Assembly: GCF_003334255.1 (NCBI RefSeq)
Contig: NZ_QOWU01000013.1
Length of the DNA: 64,000 nucleotides
Direction: 5' to 3' (one strand)
Source of the DNA: Escherichia coli
GTDB taxonomy: Bacteria; Pseudomonadota; Gammaproteobacteria; Enterobacterales; Enterobacteriaceae
The position numbers were made by a program, and so were the translations under genes. Within the stretch, counting starts at the first letter, position 1. Each line of letters starts with the position of its first letter. Below, piece by piece: positions 30,160 to 45,375 of this stretch. The notes below the pieces were generated by a model. That model saw nothing but the letters and a program-made list of their open reading frames with translations, made no database searches and was not told where the DNA came from.

Positions 30160-31521
30160 GTGGAAAAAGAAAATATCACCATCGATCCGCGTTCTTCATT
30201 TACTCCATCTTCGTCGGCAGATATTCCCGTGCCACCAGATGGATTAGTTCAACGCAGTACCCGAATTAAACGCATTCAAACCACCGCCATGTTGTTATTA
30301 TTTTTTGCGGCGGTAATCAATTATCTCGACCGCAGTTCGCTGTCGGTAGCAAATTTAACGATTCGTGAAGAATTGGGATTAAGTGCCACCGAAATCGGCG
30401 CTTTGCTCTCCGTGTTTTCACTCGCTTACGGGATTGCGCAACTTCCTTGCGGCCCACTATTGGATCGTAAAGGCCCACGCCTGATGCTGGGACTGGGGAT
30501 GTTCTTCTGGTCACTGTTCCAGGCAATGTCTGGCATGGTGCACAACTTTACGCAGTTCGTGTTGGTGCGTATCGGTATGGGGATTGGTGAAGCGCCGATG
30601 AACCCATGCGGTGTAAAAGTCATTAACGACTGGTTCAACATCAAAGAGCGCGGACGCCCGATGGGCTTCTTCAACGCAGCTTCTACCATTGGCGTTGCCG
30701 TAAGCCCACCGATTCTGGCGGCGATGATGCTGGTGATGGGCTGGCGCGGGATGTTTATTACCATTGGTGTACTGGGGATTTTTCTCGCCATCGGCTGGTA
30801 TATGCTCTATCGCAACCGCGAGCACGTAGAACTGACTGCCGTTGAGCAAGCTTATCTCAATGCAGGTAGCGTCAATGCCCGCCGAGATCCGCTCAGTTTT
30901 GCCGAATGGCGCAGCCTGTTCCGTAACCGTACAATGTGGGGAATGATGCTCGGATTCAGTGGCATCAACTACACTGCGTGGCTGTATCTGGCCTGGCTTC
31001 CTGGTTACCTGCAAACAGCCTATAACCTGGATTTAAAAAGCACAGGGTTGATGGCGGCTATCCCTTTCCTGTTTGGGGCTGCCGGGATGCTGGTCAACGG
31101 TTACGTTACCGACTGGCTGGTCAAAGGGGGAATGGCTCCGATTAAAAGCCGTAAGATCTGCATTATTGCCGGGATGTTCTGTTCTGCCGCCTTTACGCTG
31201 ATAGTACCACAAGCGACAACATCCATGACGGCGGTTCTGCTGATTGGCATGGCACTGTTCTGTATTCACTTTGCCGGAACATCCTGCTGGGGCTTGATCC
31301 ACGTCGCAGTTGCTTCTCGCATGACTGCGTCGGTGGGCAGTATCCAGAACTTTGCCAGCTTCATCTGCGCCTCTTTTGCGCCGATCATTACTGGTTTTAT
31401 TGTTGATACCACCCACTCATTCCGTCTGGCACTAATCATCTGCGGTTGCGTCACCGCAGCGGGGGCACTGGCGTACATCTTCCTGGTTCGTCAGCCGATC
31501 AACGACCCACGTAAAGATTAA
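30160..31521 (+). CDS. lgoT: MFS transporter (L-galactonate:H+ symporter)
   Basis: 453-aa polytopic ORF with MFS motifs. Confidence 0.85.
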   Translation: MEKENITIDPRSSFTPSSSADIPVPPDGLVQRSTRIKRIQTTAMLLLFFAAVINYLDRSSLSVANLTIREELGLSATEIGALLSVFSLAYGIAQLPCGPLLDRKGPRLMLGLGMFFWSLFQAMSGMVHNFTQFVLVRIGMGIGEAPMNPCGVKVINDWFNIKERGRPMGFFNAASTIGVAVSPPILAAMMLVMGWRGMFITIGVLGIFLAIGWYMLYRNREHVELTAVEQAYLNAGSVNARRDPLSFAEWRSLFRNRTMWGMMLGFSGINYTAWLYLAWLPGYLQTAYNLDLKSTGLMAAIPFLFGAAGMLVNGYVTDWLVKGGMAPIKSRKICIIAGMFCSAAFTLIVPQATTSMTAVLLIGMALFCIHFAGTSCWGLIHVAVASRMTASVGSIQNFASFICASFAPIITGFIVDTTHSFRLALIICGCVTAAGALAYIFLVRQPINDPRKD

Positions 31522-31528
31522 TCTCCTT

Positions 31529-31561
31529 ATGCCCGATAACATTTTGCTTATCGGGCATTTT
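31529..31561 (+). terminator. rho-independent terminator after lgoT, shared with convergent tsr
   Basis: 11-bp stem ATGCCCGATAA/TTATCGGGCAT, 8-nt loop, followed by TTTT. Confidence 0.7.
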
Positions 31562-31569
31562 CATGGCGA

Positions 31570-33225
31570 TTAAAATGTTTCCCAGTTCTCCTCGCTATCT
31601 GCCACGGCCATTTTACGCGGCGCAGCTGGCGTCACGGTTTTTACCACAGCCGATGTTTCACGCTGCTGTTGCTGAATCCGGAACACTGCCACTGCTTCGG
31701 TCAGGCGACTGGCCTGCTCTTCCAGCGCGGCGGCGGCAGCGGCAGACTCTTCCACCAGCGCGGCGTTCTGTTGAGTTACCCGGTCCATCTCAGCAACCGC
31801 TAAGCCAACCTGATCGATACCACGGCTCTGCTCATCAGAAGCAGAAGCAATTTCGCCCATAATGTCCGTCACGCGGGTCACGGCGCTGACAATCTCCGCC
31901 ATTGTTTCCCCGGCGCTTTCGACCAGCGTAGAGCCAACATCCACTTTCCCCACCGAGTCTTCAATCAGGCTTTTAATTTCACGAGCCGCCTGGGCGCTGC
32001 GCTGGGCCAGATTACGCACTTCTCCCGCGACCACCGCAAAACCGCGCCCTTGCTCACCCGCACGCGCAGCCTCAACCGCCGCGTTCAAAGCCAGAATATT
32101 GGTCTGGAAGGCAATGCCGTCAATTACGCTGATAATATCGGCGATTTTCTGCGAACTGGTGGAGATATCGCGCATAGTCTGCACCACGTTATCTACCACT
32201 TTACCGCCGCGTTGCGCCGTTTCAGAAGCACTTAACGCCAGATGGCTGGCCTGGCGCGCATTTTCGGCGTTCTGCTTCACCGTTGCGGTCAGTTGCTCCA
32301 TGCTGGCTGCCGTCTCTTCCAGCGAAGCGGCCTGTTGCTCGGTGCGCGAAGAGAGATCGTTATTGCCGGTGGCGATTTCGCTGGCACCGCTATAGATGGC
32401 ATTGGCCCCGTTGCGCACATCACCGACGGTACGCATCAGCTCTCCCTGCATATGGCGCAAACTCTCTGCCAGTTGCCCCATCTCATTAGAGCCATCCACC
32501 TCAATCGGTTTCACCAGATCGCCGCCTGCAATATGACGAATGCTGTCAATCAGGCGATTCATTGGCGCTACCAGCGAGGCTTTAATACCGAACCAGACGG
32601 CGAAGATGACCGCCAGTACGACGATCATCACGCCCACCAGAATCCACATCGCCTGGCTGTAGGAGGCATTGTTATCGCTGACGGCGATATCATGGAGCCG
32701 ATCGTTTTGCTCCATGTAAGCCACATACTGCTTCTCGAAACCGTCCTGATATCCCTGGGTCGGCTGATCAAAGAACTCGTTGATTTTGCCTGCACCTAAC
32801 AGTTGGATCAGCTCCGCCAGCGCATTGTGATAAATATCGTAATTACGTTTGATCTCTGCCGCTGCGGCGGTGCTCTGACGCGGGTCACGCGGCAACGCTT
32901 CGTAATCCGCCCAGTTTTTTTCCGCCTGTTTCAGCGAAATACTGGCACTCTCCATCAGCTCAGCAACGGTTGAACCGCTACCAATATTATTCTGATCCAT
33001 CATGTAGCGGATACCCGCGCGGTTGAGGGTGTTACGCGTCTGCAACAACGCGACCCAGCTGCCATTCAGCGTGGATTGCTGCTGGCGAATGGTTTGTAAA
33101 ACAGTGAAATTTTCTTTGTCATTCTTTAAGGCATTAAAGAACAGACCGCCTGATGTCAGTTGTAAAAGGCCAAAAACGGCCAAAACCAGCAGTAAGCTGG
33201 TCACAATTTTGATACGTTTTAACAT
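31570..33225 (-). CDS. tsr: methyl-accepting chemotaxis protein I (serine chemoreceptor)
   Basis: 551-aa [43 protein letters not shown]... with HAMP and MCP signalling domain and C-terminal NWETF. Confidence 0.95.
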
Positions 33226-36991: not shown

Positions 36992-37022
36992 GGCCGCCAT
37001 GTGGCGGCCTGAATTATTTTTT
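36992..37022 (+). terminator. rho-independent terminator after yjiA
   Basis: GGCCGCCA/TGGCGGCC stem followed by ATTATTTTTT. Confidence 0.6.
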
Positions 37023-37316
37023 GTTCTGATCGCGCAGCATCGCTTCACGTAAAATTGCGTTCAGGCGAGTTTGATAGCCTTTACCAGGTCGCTTCAGCCA
37101 TTCCATCACATCAGCATCAATACGCACCGAAGCCTGGGTTTTCAATGGCCGATAAAACTTACCGCGTTCTGCGTTAGACCATTGCTCATCGCTGGAAGGT
37201 GGGATATCGCTGTAATCAATCTCTTCGTCGGATTTATTCGCCAGCGCCTTCAATTCGGCCTCATGCTGCACATCGAGTGTAGAGGAGGTCCCTCGTTTAT
37301 GTTTAACCATGCTCAT
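37014..37316 (-). CDS. BrnA-like antitoxin (CopG/RHH-type, DUF4415-like)
   Basis: About 100-aa ORF MSMVKHKRGTSSTLDVQHEAELKALANKSDEEIDYSDIPP... whose ATG overlaps the stop of the upstream DUF497 ORF. Confidence 0.6.
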   Translation of the reverse strand: MSMVKHKRGTSSTLDVQHEAELKALANKSDEEIDYSDIPPSSDEQWSNAERGKFYRPLKTQASVRIDADVMEWLKRPGKGYQTRLNAILREAMLRDQNKK

Positions 37317-37599
37317 AGCGACTCCTCTCTTTACGATCTGCTTTTCGTGCACTGATGATTCGAATAATTTCATTTCCGCTTTCGAAACGGATGGTATGCG
37401 CAACCAGAATAACCACGATACCGTGAACCACGCCGATAGTCTGCCAGCGATACTCACCGTTTTCTATGCGATCTTGCTGTGACAAATGTTGTGGATCATC
37501 AAACACCAACACCGCATCTTCAAAGCGGATGCCATGTTTCACCCGATTACTTTTGGCCTTGTTTGCATCCCATTCAAACTCCATTGGCATAGTTGCCAT
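37303..37599 (-). CDS. BrnT-like toxin (DUF497 ribonuclease fold)
   Basis: MATMPMEFEWDANKAKSNRVKHGIRFEDAVLVFDDP... pattern typical of DUF497; start choice (37599, 37590 or 37584) uncertain. Confidence 0.6.
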   Translation of the reverse strand: MATMPMEFEWDANKAKSNRVKHGIRFEDAVLVFDDPQHLSQQDRIENGEYRWQTIGVVHGIVVILVAHTIRFESGNEIIRIISARKADRKERSRYEHG

Positions 37600-37605
37600 C
37601 CCTAA

Positions 37606-37617
37606 TTGTATATACAA
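37606..37617. promoter_or_regulatory. perfect 12-bp palindrome immediately upstream of the brnT-like gene (candidate operator / -10)
   Basis: TTGTATATACAA is its own reverse complement. Confidence 0.4.
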
Positions 37618-37786
37618 AAATGTATCTACAATTATTCTGCAATTATAGCGTTGATGTTGGAAATAGCATCACGTTTTGGATAATCAACCATGAAATTGAC
37701 AATGAGTAAGTTGGACTTGATTCATCCAATAGAATTTCTCGCCTGACATGGCACACTAAACACCTCGCTGTCGTTAAGGGATTACC

Positions 37787-38953
37787 GTGAAAAACTATAA
37801 AGTTATTACCCCGCTTTTTCCTACCTATGCACAGGTTAAAGCTATGATGAAAGCCGTCTCAGGCTATTCCCTGAAAGCGGTACGCAATATGATTACCGCC
37901 ATTCACGAGCAAACCGGTACGCCGCAAAAACCCGTTGACTGGTCGGAACCCGACCTGTGGATCAGCGAGCGCTTAACGGGTGAAGATGCCGACATCGCCC
38001 GTCGTATTTGGGATACCGATAATCACATCTTGAACCCGCGCCACAGCTACGGCTGCTACTTATTCCTCAACTATCCCCAGTTTGATCTGATGGAAAGCAC
38101 ACCAGATGATACCTGGCAGCCCACCTCGCACGGGCAAAAATTCCTGCAAGATGACGAAAAAACGCTGCGTTCACTGGACGATCAGGAAGGCATTCTGCAA
38201 CTTCTTGAACTATTAGCTGGCCGCGAAATGTCGCGCCGCGCCGATTTATTGCCGGAATGGCAGGCCTTTTTGCATCAGCATTCGAAATTCGCGTCTGCAA
38301 GTTCAGTGAAAAGCACGCTCTACTCCCGTCTCTATAACCTTATCGACCGTGACATGGTTAACCGTGAAGGCATGAGCTATCGCATCACCGATACCGGGCG
38401 CGCCTGACTTGGAAAAGCGTTACCTGCACGAAAAAGCGATCCGCGTAAAGAGCTGTTGGAAGCGGTAAAACGCTATAACGAACAGCAAAAAGAGCTGCTG
38501 CGCGAACAAATCAGCACGATGAACCCGTACAAATTTGAACAACTGGTCGGTCAATTACTGGAAGCAATGGGCTACGAGCAGGTCGAAGTGACCAAAGCCT
38601 CTGGCGATAAAGGCGTGGACGTGATTGGTCAGGTGCAGGTCGGCATCACCACCATTACAGAAGTGGTGCAGGTCAAAAGAATGCAGAACACTATCACTCG
38701 CCCGTATATCGACCAGTTGCGCGGGGCGTTGCCTTACCACAAAGCCATTCGCGGTACGCTCATCACCACCGGGAAATTTGCGGCGAAATGTGCAGAAGCG
38801 GCGCTCTTTCCGGGTGCCGCGCCCATTACGCTTATCGACGGCGATCGTTTACTGGAACTGTTAATCGAAAATAACGTCGGCATTCGCCGCAGCAATGCAG
38901 TGGAATTGCTGGATGTAGATTTGCAGTTGTTTGATGAGCTGGAGATGGATTAA
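37787..38953 (+). pseudogene. Mrr-family type IV restriction endonuclease homolog (N-terminal winged-helix plus C-terminal Mrr_cat), interrupted by one in-frame TGA
   Basis: Track ORFs 37787..38407 and 38456..38953 are in the same frame (38456-37787 = 669 = 3 x 223), separated only by TGA at 38405..38407; the C-terminal part carries GDKGVDVIG...VVQVKRMQNTITRP resembling K-12 Mrr GDGGIDGVI...VQAKRWQNTVGRP. Confidence 0.6.
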
Positions 38954-39016: not shown

Positions 39017-40625
<1,609 letters not shown>

Positions 40626-40636
<11 letters not shown>

Positions 40637-42017
40637 TGGCTTCAAGTTACCTCTAGGATGGAATTGTAAAAAACTGGTTGATTGTACAAAGGAGGGAAAT
40701 ATCTCTTATGGTATTGTTCAACCAGGTCAGCATCAAGAAGATGGCATTGGTATTATTCGTGTAAATAATATACAAAATGGAAATATTTACATAGACGATG
40801 TTCTGAAGGTTTCTCATGAAATAGAAAGTAAATTTGCCAAAACTAGGTTAGAAGGAGGAGAAGTACTTTTAACACTAGTGGGTTCCACTGGAATTAGCGC
40901 CATTACAACTAAAGCACTACAGGGATGGAATGTTGCTCGTGCCGTAGCCGTAATTAAGCCATGCGATGAAATAAGTGCAGAGTGGATACATATTTGCCTC
41001 CAATCACCTTTTACAAAATATTTTTTGGATTCCAGAGCTAATACTACTGTTCAGAAAACTCTCAATCTCAAAGACGTGAAAGAAATTCCATTACCAATTC
41101 CTCCACATGAGGAAAGAGTAAGTCTTGAGAAAATTTACTTCAATTTTGAGAATAGAATAAACTTAAATATAAAAATTAATAAAATCCTAGAAGAAATGTC
41201 ACAAAACCTGTTCAAATCCTGGTTTGTAGATTTTGATCCGGTGGTTGATAACGCTCTGGATGCAGGAAACCCAATTCCGGAAGCCCTGCAATCTCGCGCC
41301 GAATTGCGTCAAAAAGTACGTAATAGTGCAGATTTTAAACCGCTTCCGGCGGAAATCCGCTCGCTTTTCCCAAGTGAATTTGAAGAAACGGAGTTGGGTT
41401 GGATGCCAAAGGGATGGCAAATTAAATCATTAGATCATATTGCTAATTTCCAGAATGGTTTGGCTTTACAAAAATTTAGGCCGAAGAATATGGAGGATGA
41501 TTATTTACCTGTATTAAAAATAGCAGATCTCCGAGCAGGACAAATAACTAATGACGAACGAGCAAGAACTGATATTTCTGATAGTTGTAAGGTGTATGAC
41601 GGCGATATGATTTTCTCATGGTCGGGGACTTTGATGATCGATATTTGGACTGGTGGGAATGCTGCATTAAATCAGCATTTATATAAGGTCACATCAAAAA
41701 AATACCCACAATCTTTTTATTTTATGTGGACAATACAGCATCTTTCAAGATTTCAACATATTGCAGAGGCAAAAGCGGTAACAATGGGGCACATCAAAAA
41801 AGGAGATTTAAGTAACTCTTTCTGTCTAATTCCTACTTCATCGTTGATTACTAAATATGATAATATCGTTGGAGGATATTTAGCGAAGATTAAAAATCAA
41901 AGATTGTTAAATAACCAAATGACCGCCCTACGCGACACCCTGCTCCCGAAACTCATCTCCGGCGAGCTATCCCTGGACGATATTCCGGATCTCAACACCG
42001 ATACAGAAGCTGCATAA
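40626..42017 (+). CDS. hsdS: type I restriction-modification specificity subunit
   Basis: 463-aa ORF overlapping the hsdM stop by 11 nt; two AT-rich segments separated by a GC-normal central region. Confidence 0.85.
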
Positions 42018-42025
42018 CGCATTTT

Positions 42026-42098
42026 GCCCCTGTAAAATCAGGGGCTTTCTGGTAAGGTTTTCTACTGATACGGGAATGCTTACCAGAAATTAGCCAGG
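42026..42098 (+). promoter_or_regulatory. hsdS-hsdR intergenic hairpins (terminator-like stem plus a longer overlapping inverted repeat)
   Basis: GCCCCTG-TAAAAT-CAGGGGC followed by TTTCT; then TTCTGGTAAG...(22 nt)...CTTACCAGAA. Confidence 0.45.
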
Positions 42099-42099
42099 G

Positions 42100-45000
42100 T
42101 TGGAGCGCGATATGAGTCTCTCTTTCAGTGAAGCAAAATTAGAACAAGCGATCATTGAACTGTTACAGGATCAGGGATATCAACACCTGATCGGCGATAA
42201 TGTCCCACGTTCGACTCTCGATCAGGTCATTATCGAAGACGATCTCCGTCATTATTTAGCGGCACGCTACCAGCCTGATGGCATTACTGAAGAAGAGATT
42301 CAGCGACTGATCAAACAGTTCACCACGCTTCCGGCCTCCGATCTTTATGAAAGCAACAAAACATTTTGTCGCTGGCTGGCAAATGGTTTTCTGTTCAAAC
42401 GCGACGATCGGCAAAAAAAAGATCTCTATATTGAATTGCTCGACACCCGGCATCTACCTGCCGCACTGCGCCAGATATTTGACGCTGAAGATGTCCCGTT
42501 GCAACAGGCGGCGGAACTCCCGCCCTCCTATATTAATCCGCCGCTTAACCGGATTAAGATTGTTAACCAGCTTAAAATCTCCGGTAAAGATAATCAGACT
42601 CGTATTCCTGACGGCATTCTCTATATCAACGGTCTGCCACTGGTCGTCTTTGAATTTAAAAGCGCGGTGCGCGAGCAGGAAGCCAATATAGGCGATGCCT
42701 GGAAGCAGCTCTGCAAACGCTATCGCCGGGATATTCCGCAACTGTTTATCTACAACGCGCTCTGCATTATTAGCGATGGTGTAAATAACCGGATGGGCAA
42801 CCTGTTTGCGCCCTATGAATACTTTTACTCATGGCGCAAAGTCACCGGTAATGAAAACCGTGAACAGGACGGAATTCCATCATTGCACTCAATGATTCAG
42901 GGACTGTTTCATCCGGTACGTCTGTTGGATGTGATTAAAAACTTTATCTGCTTCCCGGATAAAGCCAAGCACGAAGTAAAAATTTGCTGCCGATATCCGC
43001 AGTACTATGCCGCCCGCAAACTCTATTACAGCATCAAGCAAGCGCGTAAACCTTTCGGTAGCGGTAAAGGCGGTACCTACTTTGGCGCAACGGGCTGCGG
43101 AAAAAGCTACACCATGCAATTTTTAACCCGCCTGTTAATGAAAAGCGTGGAGTTTGCCAGCCCGACCATTGTTTTGATCACCGACCGTACCGATCTGGAC
43201 GATCAGCTTTCTGCGCAAATGTGCAACGCCAAAAATTACATTGGCGATGACACCATCGTTCCCGTTACCAGCCGTGAAGATTTGCGTAATCAACTGGCGG
43301 GACGCAATAGTGGCGGTGTATTCCTGACAACGATCCATAAATTCACCGAAGACACCGAACTCCTTTCTGAACGCAGCAATATCATTTGCATCTCGGACGA
43401 AGCACATCGCAGTCAGGTTAACCTCGACCAGAAAGTCATCGTCGATAAAGAAAGCGGAAAAGTGCGCAAAACTTATGGCTTTGCGAAATACCTGCACGAT
43501 TCACTGCCAAACGCCACCTATGTTGGCTTTACCGGAACTCCGATTGACGCAACACTCGATGTCTTCGGTGAGGTGATCGACAGTTACACCATGACCGAAT
43601 CCGTTCAGGATGAAATCACTGTACGCATCGTGTACGAAGGCCGTGCGGCTAAAGTGATCCTGGACTCCAGCAAACTGGAAGAAGTCGAAAAGTATTACGA
43701 AGAGTGCGCAAACGCAGGCACCAATGAGTGGCAAATCGACGAAAGCAAAAAAGCCACCGCAACCATGAATGCGGTACTGGGTGATGAAGATCGGTTAAAA
43801 GCCCTCGCGGAAGATTTTGCCAAACATTATGAAAAACGCGTAGCCGAAGGTTCCACCGTAAAAGGCAAAGCCATGTTTGTTTGTGCCAGCCGTGAAATTG
43901 CCTGGGATTTCTACCGCCAGCTTAAAGTTATTCGCCCTGCCTGGTTTGAAGTGAAGCAAGCCCCCGATGGCGTCGTCCTGACGGAACAGGAGCAGAAAGA
44001 GTTACCGCCTTCTGAAATGGTGAAGATGGTCATGACGCGCGGTAAAGATGACGACGAGGCGCTTTATGATTTACTGGGCACAAAAGAATATCGCAAAGAG
44101 CTGGATAAGCAGTTCAAAAACGCTAAATCGAATTTCAAAATTGCCATTGTTGTTGATATGTGGCTGACCGGTTTTGATGTTCCTGAACTGGATACCATCT
44201 ATATTGATAAGCCCTTACAAAAACATAACCTTATCCAGACTATTTCTCGCGTTAACCGTAAACTGGAAGGCAAAAGCAAAGGGTTAGTAGTGGACTACAT
44301 CGGCATTAAGAGTCAGATGAACCAGGCACTGGCAATGTATTCCCGCATTGATGCCACCAACTTTGAAGATATTCAGCAATCGGTAATAGAAGTTAAAAAC
44401 CATCTCGATTTGTTGGGGCAAGTATTTTATGAATTCGACAGTCGGGATTATTTTAGTGGTGAGCCACAAGCGCAATTATCCTGCCTCAACCGCGCGGCGG
44501 AATTTGTTCTGCGCACTCAGAAAGTTGAACGTCGTTTTATGGGACTGGTTAAACGCATGAAAGCCGCCTACGACGTCTGCTGCGGCAGTGAAGCACTATC
44601 ACAGACAGAACGTGATCATATTCACTATTATCTTGCTGTTCGTTCAATTGTTTTCAAACTGACGAAAGGTGACGCACCGGATGTCACCCAGATGAATGCA
44701 CGCGTTCGTGAAATGATTGCAGAAGCGCTAAAAGCTGATGGCGTAGAAGAAATTTATTTTCTTGGCGATAAAAAAGCGGAATCCATCGATATTTTTGACG
44801 AAGATTATCTGGCGCGAATTAACAAGATCAAACTTCCGGCAACGAAGATCCAGTTATTACAAAAATTACTGGAAAAAGCGATCAGCGACTTCAAGAAAGT
44901 GAACCAGTTGCAAGGGATTAACTTCACCCGCCGCTTCCAGGCGATTATAGATCGTTATAATGAGCGGCGAGAAGATGATGTACTCAACGGTGAAGAATTC

Positions 45001-45375
45001 GATACATTCAGTCAGGAAATGACCGATATTATCTATGATATTAAAACCGAAATGGGCACATGGGCCGATTTAGGTATTGATATTGAAGAAAAAGCGTTTT
45101 TCGACATTCTTGCTCATATGCGCGATAAATATCAGTTCACCTATGACGATGAAAAAATGCTGTCACTGGCAAAAGAGATGAAAAGCGTGGTTGACAACAC
45201 ATCGAAATATCCTGACTGGAGTAAACGCGATGATATTAAAGCGAAACTGAAAGTTGAACTTATTCTGCTTCTACACAAGCATAAGTTCCCGCCAGTAGCA
45301 AATGATGATGTTTATATGGGTGTGCTGGCACAGGCAGAGAATTTTAAAGAACATCATATGAGTGCTTTAAATTAA
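42100..45375 (+). CDS. hsdR: type I restriction enzyme R subunit (helicase/endonuclease)
   Basis: 1091-aa ORF with helicase motifs (GCGKSYT Walker A-like; DEAH-like ICISDEAHRSQ); the likelier start is ATG 42112 (GGAG 8 nt upstream). Confidence 0.9.
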   Translation: MERDMSLSFSEAKLEQAIIELLQDQGYQHLIGDNVPRSTLDQVIIEDDLRHYLAARYQPDGITEEEIQRLIKQFTTLPASDLYESNKTFCRWLANGFLFKRDDRQKKDLYIELLDTRHLPAALRQIFDAEDVPLQQAAELPPSYINPPLNRIKIVNQLKISGKDNQTRIPDGILYINGLPLVVFEFKSAVREQEANIGDAWKQLCKRYRRDIPQLFIYNALCIISDGVNNRMGNLFAPYEYFYSWRKVTGNENREQDGIPSLHSMIQGLFHPVRLLDVIKNFICFPDKAKHEVKICCRYPQYYAARKLYYSIKQARKPFGSGKGGTYFGATGCGKSYTMQFLTRLLMKSVEFASPTIVLITDRTDLDDQLSAQMCNAKNYIGDDTIVPVTSREDLRNQLAGRNSGGVFLTTIHKFTEDTELLSERSNIICISDEAHRSQVNLDQKVIVDKESGKVRKTYGFAKYLHDSLPNATYVGFTGTPIDATLDVFGEVIDSYTMTESVQDEITVRIVYEGRAAKVILDSSKLEEVEKYYEECANAGTNEWQIDESKKATATMNAVLGDEDRLKALAEDFAKHYEKRVAEGSTVKGKAMFVCASREIAWDFYRQLKVIRPAWFEVKQAPDGVVLTEQEQKELPPSEMVKMVMTRGKDDDEALYDLLGTKEYRKELDKQFKNAKSNFKIAIVVDMWLTGFDVPELDTIYIDKPLQKHNLIQTISRVNRKLEGKSKGLVVDYIGIKSQMNQALAMYSRIDATNFEDIQQSVIEVKNHLDLLGQVFYEFDSRDYFSGEPQAQLSCLNRAAEFVLRTQKVERRFMGLVKRMKAAYDVCCGSEALSQTERDHIHYYLAVRSIVFKLTKGDAPDVTQMNARVREMIAEALKADGVEEIYFLGDKKAESIDIFDEDYLARINKIKLPATKIQLLQKLLEKAISDFKKVNQLQGINFTRRFQAIIDRYNERREDDVLNGEEFDTFSQEMTDIIYDIKTEMGTWADLGIDIEEKAFFDILAHMRDKYQFTYDDEKMLSLAKEMKSVVDNTSKYPDWSKRDDIKAKLKVELILLLHKHKFPPVANDDVYMGVLAQAENFKEHHMSALN

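What the first reader, a model, noticed from the sequence alone, without database searches (positions are those of the whole stretch)
37787..38953. Mrr-family restriction gene split by a single in-frame TGA
The two track ORFs (206 aa and 165 aa) share one frame and are separated only by TGA at 38405..38407. The downstream part carries an Mrr_cat-like PD-(D/E)xK core but has no independent ATG (it would need the TTG at 38456). This looks like a nonsense-inactivated type IV restriction enzyme, a plausible outcome of selection against a nuclease that attacks the cell's own modified DNA. Alternatives are a functional N-terminal fragment plus internally initiated nuclease, or stop-codon read-through.
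Basis: seen in the sequence. Interest (0 to 1): 0.7.

Follow-up and report, generated by a model that had tools for sequence, protein, structure and literature searches.

The report
Nonsense-inactivated Mrr-like restriction nuclease gene
This is an ordinary, already-annotated pseudogene: one G-to-A change turned a tryptophan codon into a stop in an E. coli defence-island nuclease gene, cutting the DNA-reading half off from the DNA-cutting half.

Summary
ORFs 37787-38407 (206 aa) and 38456-38953 (165 aa) share one frame, with one TGA (38405-38407) and 16 sense codons between them. Intact E. coli orthologues (388 aa, e.g. WP_000800829.1) have the same length and carry TGG (Trp207) there. The lesion is a single G>A at 38407, with no indels.

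The stop is real. 34 of 5426 complete E. coli genomes carry it, against 335 with the exact TGG version. The exact 206-aa fragment occurs on at least 1000 public contigs. NCBI PGAP already labels the locus "restriction endonuclease, pseudogene, internal stop".

The intact protein has a confident N-terminal tandem winged-helix module (1-211), a hinge, and a C-terminal Mrr_cat nuclease (243-359). It matches PADLOC candidate PDC-S02 over its full length and resembles K-12 Mrr only in the nuclease domain. It normally sits beside type I hsd genes.

All TGA genomes trace to one haplotype, fully linked to one hsdS allele. I found no SECIS, no frameshift site, no internal promoter and no good RBS.

The best reading is a lineage-specific loss of function. 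Residual UGA-C readthrough, which would re-insert Trp, cannot be excluded. The "self-methylation conflict" motive is untested. Interest is low.

The parts
37787..38953 (+). Whole disrupted gene: a 388-codon PDC-S02 / Mrr_cat-type nuclease gene with one premature stop
   Evidence: One-frame translation. Same length as the intact alleles, 22 substitutions from VCSW7 and no indels. PGAP marks it as a pseudogene with 'internal stop' in ATCC 11775, S88, E110019 and others.
37776..37781 (+). Shine-Dalgarno-like AAGGGA, 5 nt upstream of the GTG start at 37787
   Evidence: Anti-SD duplex energy -5.2 kcal/mol, the best of the candidate starts apart from an internal GTG at codon 268. Sequence read.
37787..38404 (+). 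Translated part: 206-aa N-terminal module with two winged-helix-like units, the presumed DNA reader
   Evidence: AF2 model of the intact orthologue has pLDDT 85-97 for residues 1-211, with helix/beta-hairpin units. Foldseek top hits are FokI and the BpuJI recognition domain. Weak Pfam wHTH signals at 151-208.
38405..38407 (+). Premature stop TGA (codon 207). The ancestral codon is TGG (Trp), the next base is C (UGA-C), and the mutation is G>A at 38407
   Evidence: Base-by-base comparison with intact alleles. Exact-allele counts are 34 TGA versus 335 TGG.
38408..38455 (+). 16 stop-free codons between the TGA and the TTG: the end of the last N-module helix and the hinge
   Evidence: The model shows a low-confidence hinge at 212-218.
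38422..38422 (+). Window-private synonymous G>A (Leu212 TTG>TTA). It removes the TTG that gene callers use as a restart codon in other TGA genomes
   Evidence: It is the only difference from ATCC 11775 and S88 in 1451 nt. Other TGA loci have TTG and a called 177-aa ORF.
38456..38953 (+). Untranslated (or barely translated) downstream ORF of 165 codons: a long linker helix plus the nuclease domain. Its protein sequence is identical to the intact allele
   Evidence: The TTG has only a weak SD (-2.1 kcal/mol) and there is no internal promoter. This TTG is CTG in the NC101 allele.
38513..38863 (+). Mrr_cat (PF04471) PD-(D/E)xK nuclease core, codons 243-359. Invariant D274 (38606-08), D278 (38618-20), E292, Q295 and K297 (38675-77) are all still encoded
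   Evidence: Pfam E=3.8e-29. Invariant columns in the 22-sequence alignment. Alignment to K-12 Mrr.
39017..45375 (+). Linked, intact type I R-M system: hsdM 39017-40636, hsdS 40626-42017, hsdR 42112-45375
   Evidence: ORFs. Annotation of identical loci. This hsdS allele is found only with the TGA allele.
37014..37590 (-). brnA/brnT toxin-antitoxin pair immediately upstream, divergent from the gene. Context only
   Evidence: Annotation of identical loci.

Best explanation
The locus is a recently pseudogenised single-chain defence nuclease gene in the E. coli immigration control region, between yjiA and the hsd genes.

The intact protein (388 aa) is modular. An N-terminal tandem winged-helix module (residues 1-211) presumably recognises DNA, with the target modification or sequence unknown. 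A flexible hinge and a long helix (212-244) connect it to a C-terminal Mrr_cat PD-(D/E)xK domain (243-359) that would cleave.

In this lineage one G>A transition at 38407 changed Trp207 (TGG) to TGA. Ribosomes starting at GTG 37787 therefore release a 206-aa reader module without a nuclease, and the nuclease-coding part is essentially not translated. The allele arose once, on a haplotype that also carries one particular hsdS allele, and has been inherited with it.

Shown here: the mutation, its ancestral state, its single origin and linkage, the domain layout, and the absence of recoding or restart signals.

Inferred: that the intact enzyme is a type IV-like, modification-dependent restriction or defence nuclease; that the truncated product is functionless; and that loss was neutral or mildly advantageous.
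For: 1. Ancestral state. Intact alleles of identical length have TGG at codon 207, and there are no indels.

2. Family. There are 902 homologues at E<=1e-5. All 22 aligned diverse homologues are single chains of 383-406 aa with W (or Y in the distant ones) at this column.

3. Reality and frequency. The exact TGA 72-mer is in 34 complete genomes and the TGG version in 335. The 206-aa product is on at least 1000 contigs.

4. Independent annotation. PGAP labels it a pseudogene with 'internal stop'.

5. No rescue signals.
- No Rfam or SECIS hit.
- The RNA after the TGA is less structured than shuffled controls, z=+1.6.
- No internal promoter.
- SD energy is -2.1 kcal/mol at TTG 38456 and +0.1 at ATG 38519, against -5.2 at the true start.
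- The TTG is not conserved; it is CTG in NC101.

6. Single origin. The 34 TGA genomes equal in number the 34 genomes with the D100+H115 85-mer. The hsdS allele is restricted to the same strains. None of the 27 long contigs read that carry this HsdS has an intact gene.

7. Continuing decay on this haplotype.
- Secondary changes in the gene are A38S, V266I (at an invariant column) and L340F, against one synonymous change.
- B-1109 has deleted from codon ~228 through hsdM and hsdS into hsdR.
- IS1 insertions occur in hsdS or hsdM in other members.

8. Domain layout.
Against: 1. The stop is UGA followed by C, a context documented as a poor terminator in bacteria (PMC5289835). UGA readthrough in E. 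coli mostly inserts Trp (PMC11126739), which is exactly the ancestral residue. Some full-length, wild-type-sequence protein is therefore probably made.

2. The downstream 181 codons are still identical in protein sequence to intact alleles. The inactivation is thus recent, and decay cannot yet be demonstrated in this window itself.

3. My first N/S test overstated decay. It gave 3 nonsynonymous to 0 synonymous 'haplotype-specific' changes, but R115H also occurs in an intact allele (strain 746) and D100 occurs in other genera. With those removed the numbers are too small to prove relaxed constraint.

4. No experiment shows that the intact protein is active, or what it targets. The only published test of a PDC-S02 representative gave no protection against T4, T5 or T7 (bioRxiv 10.1101/2024.09.26.614923).
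Confidence: 0.83

Rival explanations
1. Hypomorph rather than null. Leaky decoding of UGA-C by tRNA-Trp re-inserts the original Trp207, so the cell makes a small percentage of normal full-length enzyme. The allele acts as a turned-down, not switched-off, nuclease.
For: The stop is UGA with +4 C. UGA-C termination is inefficient in bacteria (PMC5289835). TGA is the leakiest stop in E. coli and is replaced mainly by Trp (PMC11126739). The downstream nuclease sequence and all invariant catalytic residues are intact.
Against: There is no stimulatory structure or recoding element. High UGA leakiness is partly attributed to the inefficient RF2 allele of K-12 (PMC11126739), and whether this strain has that allele was not tested. 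Secondary nonsynonymous changes, including V266I at an invariant column and L340F downstream of the stop, and later deletion of the 3' part in B-1109, suggest no constraint. Untranslated mRNA downstream of a premature stop is also prone to Rho polarity and decay (established knowledge, not tested here).
Confidence: 0.1
2. The 206-aa N-terminal winged-helix fragment is itself functional, for example as a DNA-binding regulator or as a decoy, and the truncation was selected to keep it.
For: The stop falls only 5 residues before the end of the confidently folded N-terminal module, so the fragment is probably a stable domain. It keeps the native start and SD. The allele is widespread, on at least 1000 contigs.
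Against: Among the 120 best homologues listed, every fragment examined was a frameshift product or a piece of an otherwise full-length gene, so no family of stand-alone N-modules was seen. The fragment picks up its own nonsynonymous variant (A38S). High prevalence is explained by clonal expansion of a heavily sequenced lineage: the window is 99.96% identical to E110019 over 45 kb.
Confidence: 0.04
3. Split enzyme. The nuclease half is made separately by re-initiation downstream of the stop (TTG 38456 or ATG 38519; TTG 38420 in sister genomes) and works alone or together with the N-fragment.
For: In-frame start codons exist 13-112 nt after the stop, and gene callers do call ORFs of 177, 165 and 144 aa there.
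Against: The SD is weak or absent and there is no promoter. The start codons are not conserved: TTG 38456 is CTG in NC101, and TTG 38420 is TTA in this very window. No homologue is naturally split at this point.
Confidence: 0.03
4. The inactivation was positively selected, because the intact nuclease attacks DNA carrying the methylation pattern written by the linked type I system with this particular HsdS. This concerns why the allele exists and is compatible with the best explanation of what it is.
For: There is complete linkage between the TGA and one hsdS allele. The closest intact alleles (FDAARGOS_1284, 82.0311 and 82.0312; 99.2% identical) carry an hsdS that matches only 64% of the window's hsdS, which I read as a difference in one target-recognition domain. 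A precedent exists for antagonism between K-12 Mrr and a resident methylase (PMC3152355).
Against: Linkage reflects a single mutational event on one haplotype (n=1), and hitch-hiking explains it equally well. The family is normally found beside or inside type I hsd or BREX loci in E. coli, Kushneria, Thiocystis, Serratia and Modicisalibacter, so coexistence with m6A-writing systems is the rule. The target of the enzyme is unknown.
Confidence: 0.15

Closest known systems
Intact E. coli orthologue 'restriction endonuclease' WP_000800829.1 (strains VCSW7, FDAARGOS_1284, Z1323HEC0462) and WP_000800824.1/825.1 (NC101, strain 746)
   Same: Same locus between brnTA/yjiA and hsdM. Same length (1167 nt). 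98-99% DNA identity. Same domains.
   Different: They have TGG at codon 207 and are annotated as intact. The window has TGA, plus E100D.
PADLOC phage-defence candidate PDC-S02 (model PDLC04796)
   Same: Embedded in R-M or BREX loci, as that candidate class is defined.
   Different: It is only a candidate family. The one representative tested gave no protection against T4, T5 or T7. The window's copy is broken.
EcoKMrr (E. coli K-12 Mrr, type IV methyl-directed restriction enzyme, 304 aa)
   Same: C-terminal Mrr_cat domain, 31% identity over ~170 aa, with aligned D...QxK motif residues. Same chromosomal niche next to yjiA in the immigration control region.
   Different: The N-terminal 215 residues are unrelated (no Mrr_N hit). 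The protein is 84 aa longer. It is a different Pfam/PADLOC family. K-12 mrr is intact.
FokI / BpuJI / Nt.BspD6I-type modular restriction enzymes
   Same: Foldseek's best PDB matches (FokI E=1.3e-4, prob 0.97-1.0). Architecture of several winged-helix/HTH recognition units followed by a separate cleavage domain.
   Different: TM-scores are low (0.2-0.3) and sequence identity is 8-11%. This is an architectural resemblance only, not family membership.

Membership tests
Mrr_cat (PF04471) PD-(D/E)xK nuclease superfamily | Significant match to the Mrr_cat profile | tested here: met
   E=3.8e-29, residues 243-359, model positions 2-115 of 115. The encoded sequence in the window is identical over this stretch.
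Mrr_cat (PF04471) PD-(D/E)xK nuclease superfamily | Conserved acidic and (E/Q)xK catalytic residues | tested here: met
   D274, D278, E292, Q295 and K297 are invariant in 22 homologues. D278 and Q295-x-K297 align with the D and QAK of K-12 Mrr. That these residues are catalytic rests on established knowledge of Mrr, not on a test here.
EcoKMrr-type type IV restriction enzymes | Mrr-type N-terminal DNA-binding domain homologous to K-12 Mrr | tested here: not met
   BLASTP finds no N-terminal similarity to K-12 Mrr. Pfam finds no Mrr_N.
EcoKMrr-type type IV restriction enzymes | Cleavage dependent on modified (methylated) DNA | not testable with these tools
   Needs biochemistry or genetics. PADLOC's mREase_IV model matches only the C-terminal domain (E=1.4e-27).
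PADLOC PDC-S02 | Full-length match to the family HMM | tested here: met
   PDLC04796, E=2.1e-207, residues 1-386. Tested on the intact orthologue.
PADLOC PDC-S02 | Recurrent embedding in known defence loci | tested here: met
   Immediately upstream of hsdMSR in E. coli. Beside or inside hsd operons in Kushneria, Thiocystis and Serratia, and beside BREX in Modicisalibacter.
PADLOC PDC-S02 | Demonstrated anti-phage activity | not testable with these tools
   One published test of a PDC-S02 representative was negative for T4, T5 and T7.
Unitary pseudogene (nonsense-inactivated) | Orthologues have a sense codon at the stop and are single, same-length ORFs | tested here: met
   TGG in VCSW7, FDAARGOS_1284, Z1323HEC0462, NC101 and strain 746. 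335 genomes have the exact TGG 72-mer. The family alignment shows single chains.
Unitary pseudogene (nonsense-inactivated) | No independent expression signals for the downstream part | tested here: met
   No promoter-like site inside the gene. Weak or absent SD. The candidate start codons are not conserved.
Unitary pseudogene (nonsense-inactivated) | Relaxed selective constraint after the lesion | tested here: inconclusive
   Within the lineage: A38S, V266I and L340F against one synonymous change. The initial 3N:0S result was weakened because R115H also occurs in an intact allele. The numbers are too small.
Programmed recoding (selenocysteine or prfB-like +1 frameshift) | SECIS hairpin after UGA, or a slippery CUU-UGA-C site with an upstream SD | tested here: not met
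   No Rfam hit. The downstream fold is weaker than shuffles. The codon before the stop is GCC, not CUU, and the +1 frame reaches a stop after 20 codons.

The most novel reading that the evidence does not exclude
The TGG>TGA change at a UGA-C context is a natural 'dimmer'. tRNA-Trp readthrough restores the exact wild-type protein at a few percent of normal level. This keeps a potentially self-toxic defence nuclease at a tolerable dose in a lineage whose linked type I system acquired a new specificity. On this reading the allele is maintained, not decaying.
Probability: 0.07. Interest if true: 0.5.

Novelty: already known. Interest (0 to 1): 0.12.

Why it matters
It matters little beyond correct annotation. 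The two ORFs should be merged and labelled as one pseudogene of a PDC-S02/Mrr_cat nuclease, not reported as two genes or as a working restriction enzyme.

For strain biology, it means this lineage (ATCC 11775, S88 and their relatives) probably lacks whatever restriction or defence activity the intact protein gives to the roughly 850 other complete genomes that carry most of the locus.

There is a modest wider use. The natural TGA/TGG allele pair offers near-isogenic material for testing the still-unvalidated PDC-S02 family, and for asking whether such nucleases conflict with particular type I specificities.

Tried and rejected
1. Two compensating frameshifts instead of a nonsense codon. The +1 frame across the junction reads plausibly (DLEKRYLHEKAIRVK...). 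Rejected: intact alleles align without any indel, and the in-frame peptide LGKALPARKSDPRKELL is the conserved one.

2. Sequencing error. Rejected by 34 complete genomes and at least 1000 contigs.

3. Selenocysteine or other recoding. Rejected.

4. prfB-like +1 frameshift at UGA-C. Rejected: there is no CUU slippery codon and the +1 frame terminates after 20 codons.

5. Naturally separate genes. Rejected.

6. Recurrent inactivation as a strong pattern. Other truncated alleles exist: loss of one A in the A5 runs at 38431-38435 and 38487-38491. They are rare, on 2 and 15 contigs, and one carrier assembly is riddled with frameshifts. I do not claim a hotspot.

7. Block-specific horizontal transfer of the TGA haplotype. 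Not supported. E110019 matches the window at 99.96% over the whole 45 kb compared, not only across the ICR.

8. N/S test for decay. It was initially striking: 3N/0S against 3N/53S (p=6e-4), and against neighbouring genes at 6N/36S (p=0.006). I downgraded it after finding H115 in an intact allele.

9. Searches that returned nothing useful. A PDB sequence search gave no hit. NCBIfam gave nothing above cut-off. PMC2481252, on an ICR type I system, does not mention this gene.

Full report
**1. What is in the sequence**

The window is Escherichia coli. It is 99.9% identical over 1451 nt to ATCC 11775, S88 and about 30 other complete genomes. The region is the immigration control region. Gene order is btsT, yjiX, yjiA, brnA/brnT (minus strand), the target gene, hsdM, hsdS, hsdR, symE.

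They are 37787-38407 (GTG start, 206 aa) and 38456-38953 (TTG start, 165 aa), in the same frame. Read as one frame, 37787-38953 has 388 sense codons with a single internal stop, TGA at 38405-38407 (codon 207).

**2. The ancestral state**

Strain VCSW7 carries a 1167-nt intact gene at the same place (WP_000800829.1). Base-by-base comparison shows 22 substitutions and no indel. The only one that matters is G>A at 38407, which changes TGG (Trp) to TGA. Four further intact alleles (FDAARGOS_1284, Z1323HEC0462, NC101, strain 746) also have TGG.

I had considered that the in-frame stop hid two compensating frameshifts, because the +1 frame across the junction reads plausibly. The indel-free alignment excludes this, as does conservation of the in-frame peptide in 22 homologues.

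**3. Reality and frequency**

- A 72-nt probe centred on the codon matches 429 of 5426 complete E. coli genomes. Of these, 34 are exact for TGA and 335 exact for TGG.
- About 880 genomes carry most of the locus.
- The exact 206-aa product is on at least 1000 public contigs; the counter saturates at 1000.
- NCBI's PGAP already annotates the locus as "restriction endonuclease", pseudogene, "internal stop" in every TGA genome I opened.

The stop is therefore a genuine, common, lineage-specific allele and is already recorded in public annotation.

**4. What the intact gene encodes**

- Pfam finds Mrr_cat at residues 243-359 (E=3.8e-29) and only faint winged-helix signals at 151-208.
- PADLOC's candidate family PDC-S02 matches over the full length (E=2e-207).
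- K-12 Mrr shares 31% identity over the C-terminal ~170 residues only, and the N-terminal 215 residues are unrelated.
- An AlphaFold model built on a 22-sequence alignment is confident for residues 1-211 (pLDDT 85-97). This part is helical with two beta-hairpin winged-helix-like units. It shows a low-confidence hinge at 212-218, a long helix at 219-244 and then the nuclease core.
- Foldseek's best PDB matches are FokI (E=1e-4), the BpuJI recognition domain and Nt.BspD6I. All are modular enzymes with winged-helix recognition units and a separate cleavage domain. TM-scores are low, so this is an architectural resemblance only.
- Residues D274, D278, E292, Q295 and K297 are invariant across the family and are still encoded in the window.

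Trp207 lies in the last helix of the N-terminal module. The stop therefore separates the presumed DNA reader almost exactly from the hinge and nuclease.

**5. Family context**

Homologues are single chains of 383-406 aa in Enterobacteriaceae, Halomonadaceae, Chromatiaceae and others. Position 207 is W, or Y in the most distant ones. No split version appears among the 22 aligned homologues.

Context in distant relatives:
- Kushneria: follows hsdR-hsdS-TIR-hsdM.
- Thiocystis: lies between hsdR and hsdM.
- Serratia fonticola: abuts an hsd operon.
- Modicisalibacter: abuts BREX.

This is the kind of embedding by which PADLOC defined its "phage defence candidates". The single PDC-S02 representative tested experimentally gave no protection against T4, T5 or T7 (bioRxiv 10.1101/2024.09.26.614923). 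The biochemical function of the intact protein is therefore inferred, not shown.

**6. Could the broken gene still work?**

(a) Recoding. There is no Rfam or SECIS match. The 81 nt around and after the stop fold less well than shuffled controls (z=+1.6). The codon before the stop is GCC, not the CUU of the prfB frameshift site, and the +1 frame stops after 20 codons.

(b) Separate expression of the nuclease half. There is no promoter-like site inside the gene. SD pairing is -2.1 kcal/mol for TTG 38456 and +0.1 for ATG 38519, against -5.2 for the true start. TTG 38456 is CTG in the NC101 allele. The TTG at 38420, which gene callers use in sister genomes, is TTA in this window because of its one private synonymous change at 38422.

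(c) Leaky termination. This cannot be dismissed. The signal is UGA-C, a context documented as inefficient in bacteria (PMC5289835). UGA readthrough in E. coli mostly inserts Trp (PMC11126739), the original residue. A small amount of wild-type-sequence protein is therefore likely. Whether it matters physiologically is unknown.

**7. Evolutionary history**

- The hsdS allele next to the gene occurs full-length in 31 complete genomes, plus one with an IS1 insertion and one partial copy. These are the same 33 strains as H1-H33, the set closest to the window.
- The 34th TGA genome, B-1109, has since deleted everything from about codon 228 of the gene, through hsdM and hsdS, into hsdR.
- Genomes with intact alleles carry other hsdS alleles.
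- In the larger assembly collection this exact HsdS is indexed in 3573 blocks. None of the 27 longest contigs read has an intact neighbour, and all four loci I translated there have TGA.
- E110019 is 99.96% identical to the window over 45 kb, so the carriers share a long near-identical segment. There is no sign that the ICR alone was transferred.

The simplest history is one mutation on one haplotype, inherited together with its type I system.

**8. Is it decaying?**

Against four intact alleles, the changes specific to the TGA haplotype were E100D, R115H and W207*, with no synonymous change. Variation among the intact alleles themselves is 3 nonsynonymous to 53 synonymous (Fisher p=6e-4). Neighbouring intact genes on the same haplotype show 6 to 36 (p=0.006).

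Wider sampling weakened this. Strain 746 has an intact gene carrying H115, and D100 is the residue in several other genera.

What remains are changes within the lineage:
- A38S (two sublineage genomes)
- L340F (three genomes)
- V266I, at an otherwise invariant column (one genome)
- one synonymous change (this window)
- structural decay of the locus in some members (B-1109 deletion, IS1 insertions).

This fits loss of constraint, but the numbers are too small to prove it. The downstream protein sequence in this window is still identical to the intact alleles, so the event is recent.

**9.

Selection against a nuclease that attacks the cell's own modified DNA has a precedent: K-12 Mrr against type III Mod (PMC3152355). 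It also fits the perfect linkage with one hsdS allele. The closest intact alleles carry an hsdS that matches only 64% of the window's hsdS, which I read as a difference in one target-recognition domain.

However, linkage from a single event carries no statistical weight, and the family normally coexists with adjacent type I or BREX methylation. I rate this possible (about 0.15) but untested.

**10. Verdict**

The locus is a nonsense-inactivated member of the PDC-S02 / Mrr_cat nuclease family. It resembles Mrr only in its cleavage domain. It is already flagged as a pseudogene in RefSeq.

This is an ordinary finding and interest is low. The only mildly unusual aspect is that the particular stop (UGA-C at a Trp codon) is the one most likely to be read through back to the wild-type sequence.

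Noticed in passing
window 38422: The window's only difference from ATCC 11775 and S88 in 1451 nt is a synonymous G>A (Leu212 TTG>TTA). It removes the TTG, 13 nt after the premature stop, that gene callers use as the start of a 177-aa downstream ORF in sister genomes.
   Followed up: partly
window 40626-42017 (hsdS): This hsdS allele is found only in genomes that carry the TGA allele (31 full-length copies, one with IS1, one partial). The closest intact-gene genomes match only 64% of it, which suggests a swap of one target-recognition domain on the same branch as the nonsense mutation.
   Followed up: partly
L024 7722-10318 (strain B-1109); L029 2477-3174; row H137 (strain C10): On the TGA haplotype the whole ICR keeps eroding in some strains. 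B-1109 has a deletion running from about codon 228 of the pseudogene into hsdR. One genome has IS1 in hsdM and C10 has IS1 in hsdS.
   Followed up: partly
window 38431-38435 and 38487-38491: Two A5 runs in the hinge and linker-helix coding region are the sites of rare independent one-base deletions in other E. coli alleles (226-aa and 244-aa truncated products, on 2 and 15 contigs).
   Followed up: yes
window 37014-37590 (minus strand): A brnA/brnT toxin-antitoxin pair sits between yjiA and the pseudogene. In some genomes with an intact nuclease gene (VCSW7, FDAARGOS_1284), brnT is itself truncated.
   Followed up: no
L015 4520-5482 (Kushneria indalinina): A TIR-domain gene (PF13676) is inserted between hsdS and hsdM of the type I operon that precedes the homologue. 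This is another defence-type gene embedded in the same operon.
   Followed up: no
window 45590-45928 (symE) versus L005, L006, L008: In the neighbour-gene control, symE gave 252 'nonsynonymous' sites. This means at least one compared allele is highly divergent or out of register, so I do not rely on symE, although its 2 haplotype-specific sites are included in the pooled 6N/36S.
   Followed up: no
L014 35544-38604 (E110019) versus window 30160-33225: tsr (internal stop) and lgoT (frameshift) are annotated as pseudogenes in E110019 but are intact ORFs in the window (551 aa and 453 aa). They are strain-specific lesions or assembly errors in that record.
   Followed up: yes
window 37596-37671 (minus strand): Weak Rfam match to the drz-agam-1 ribozyme model (21.5 bits against a gathering score of 37, E=0.21), in the intergenic region upstream of the gene. 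Almost certainly chance.
   Followed up: no
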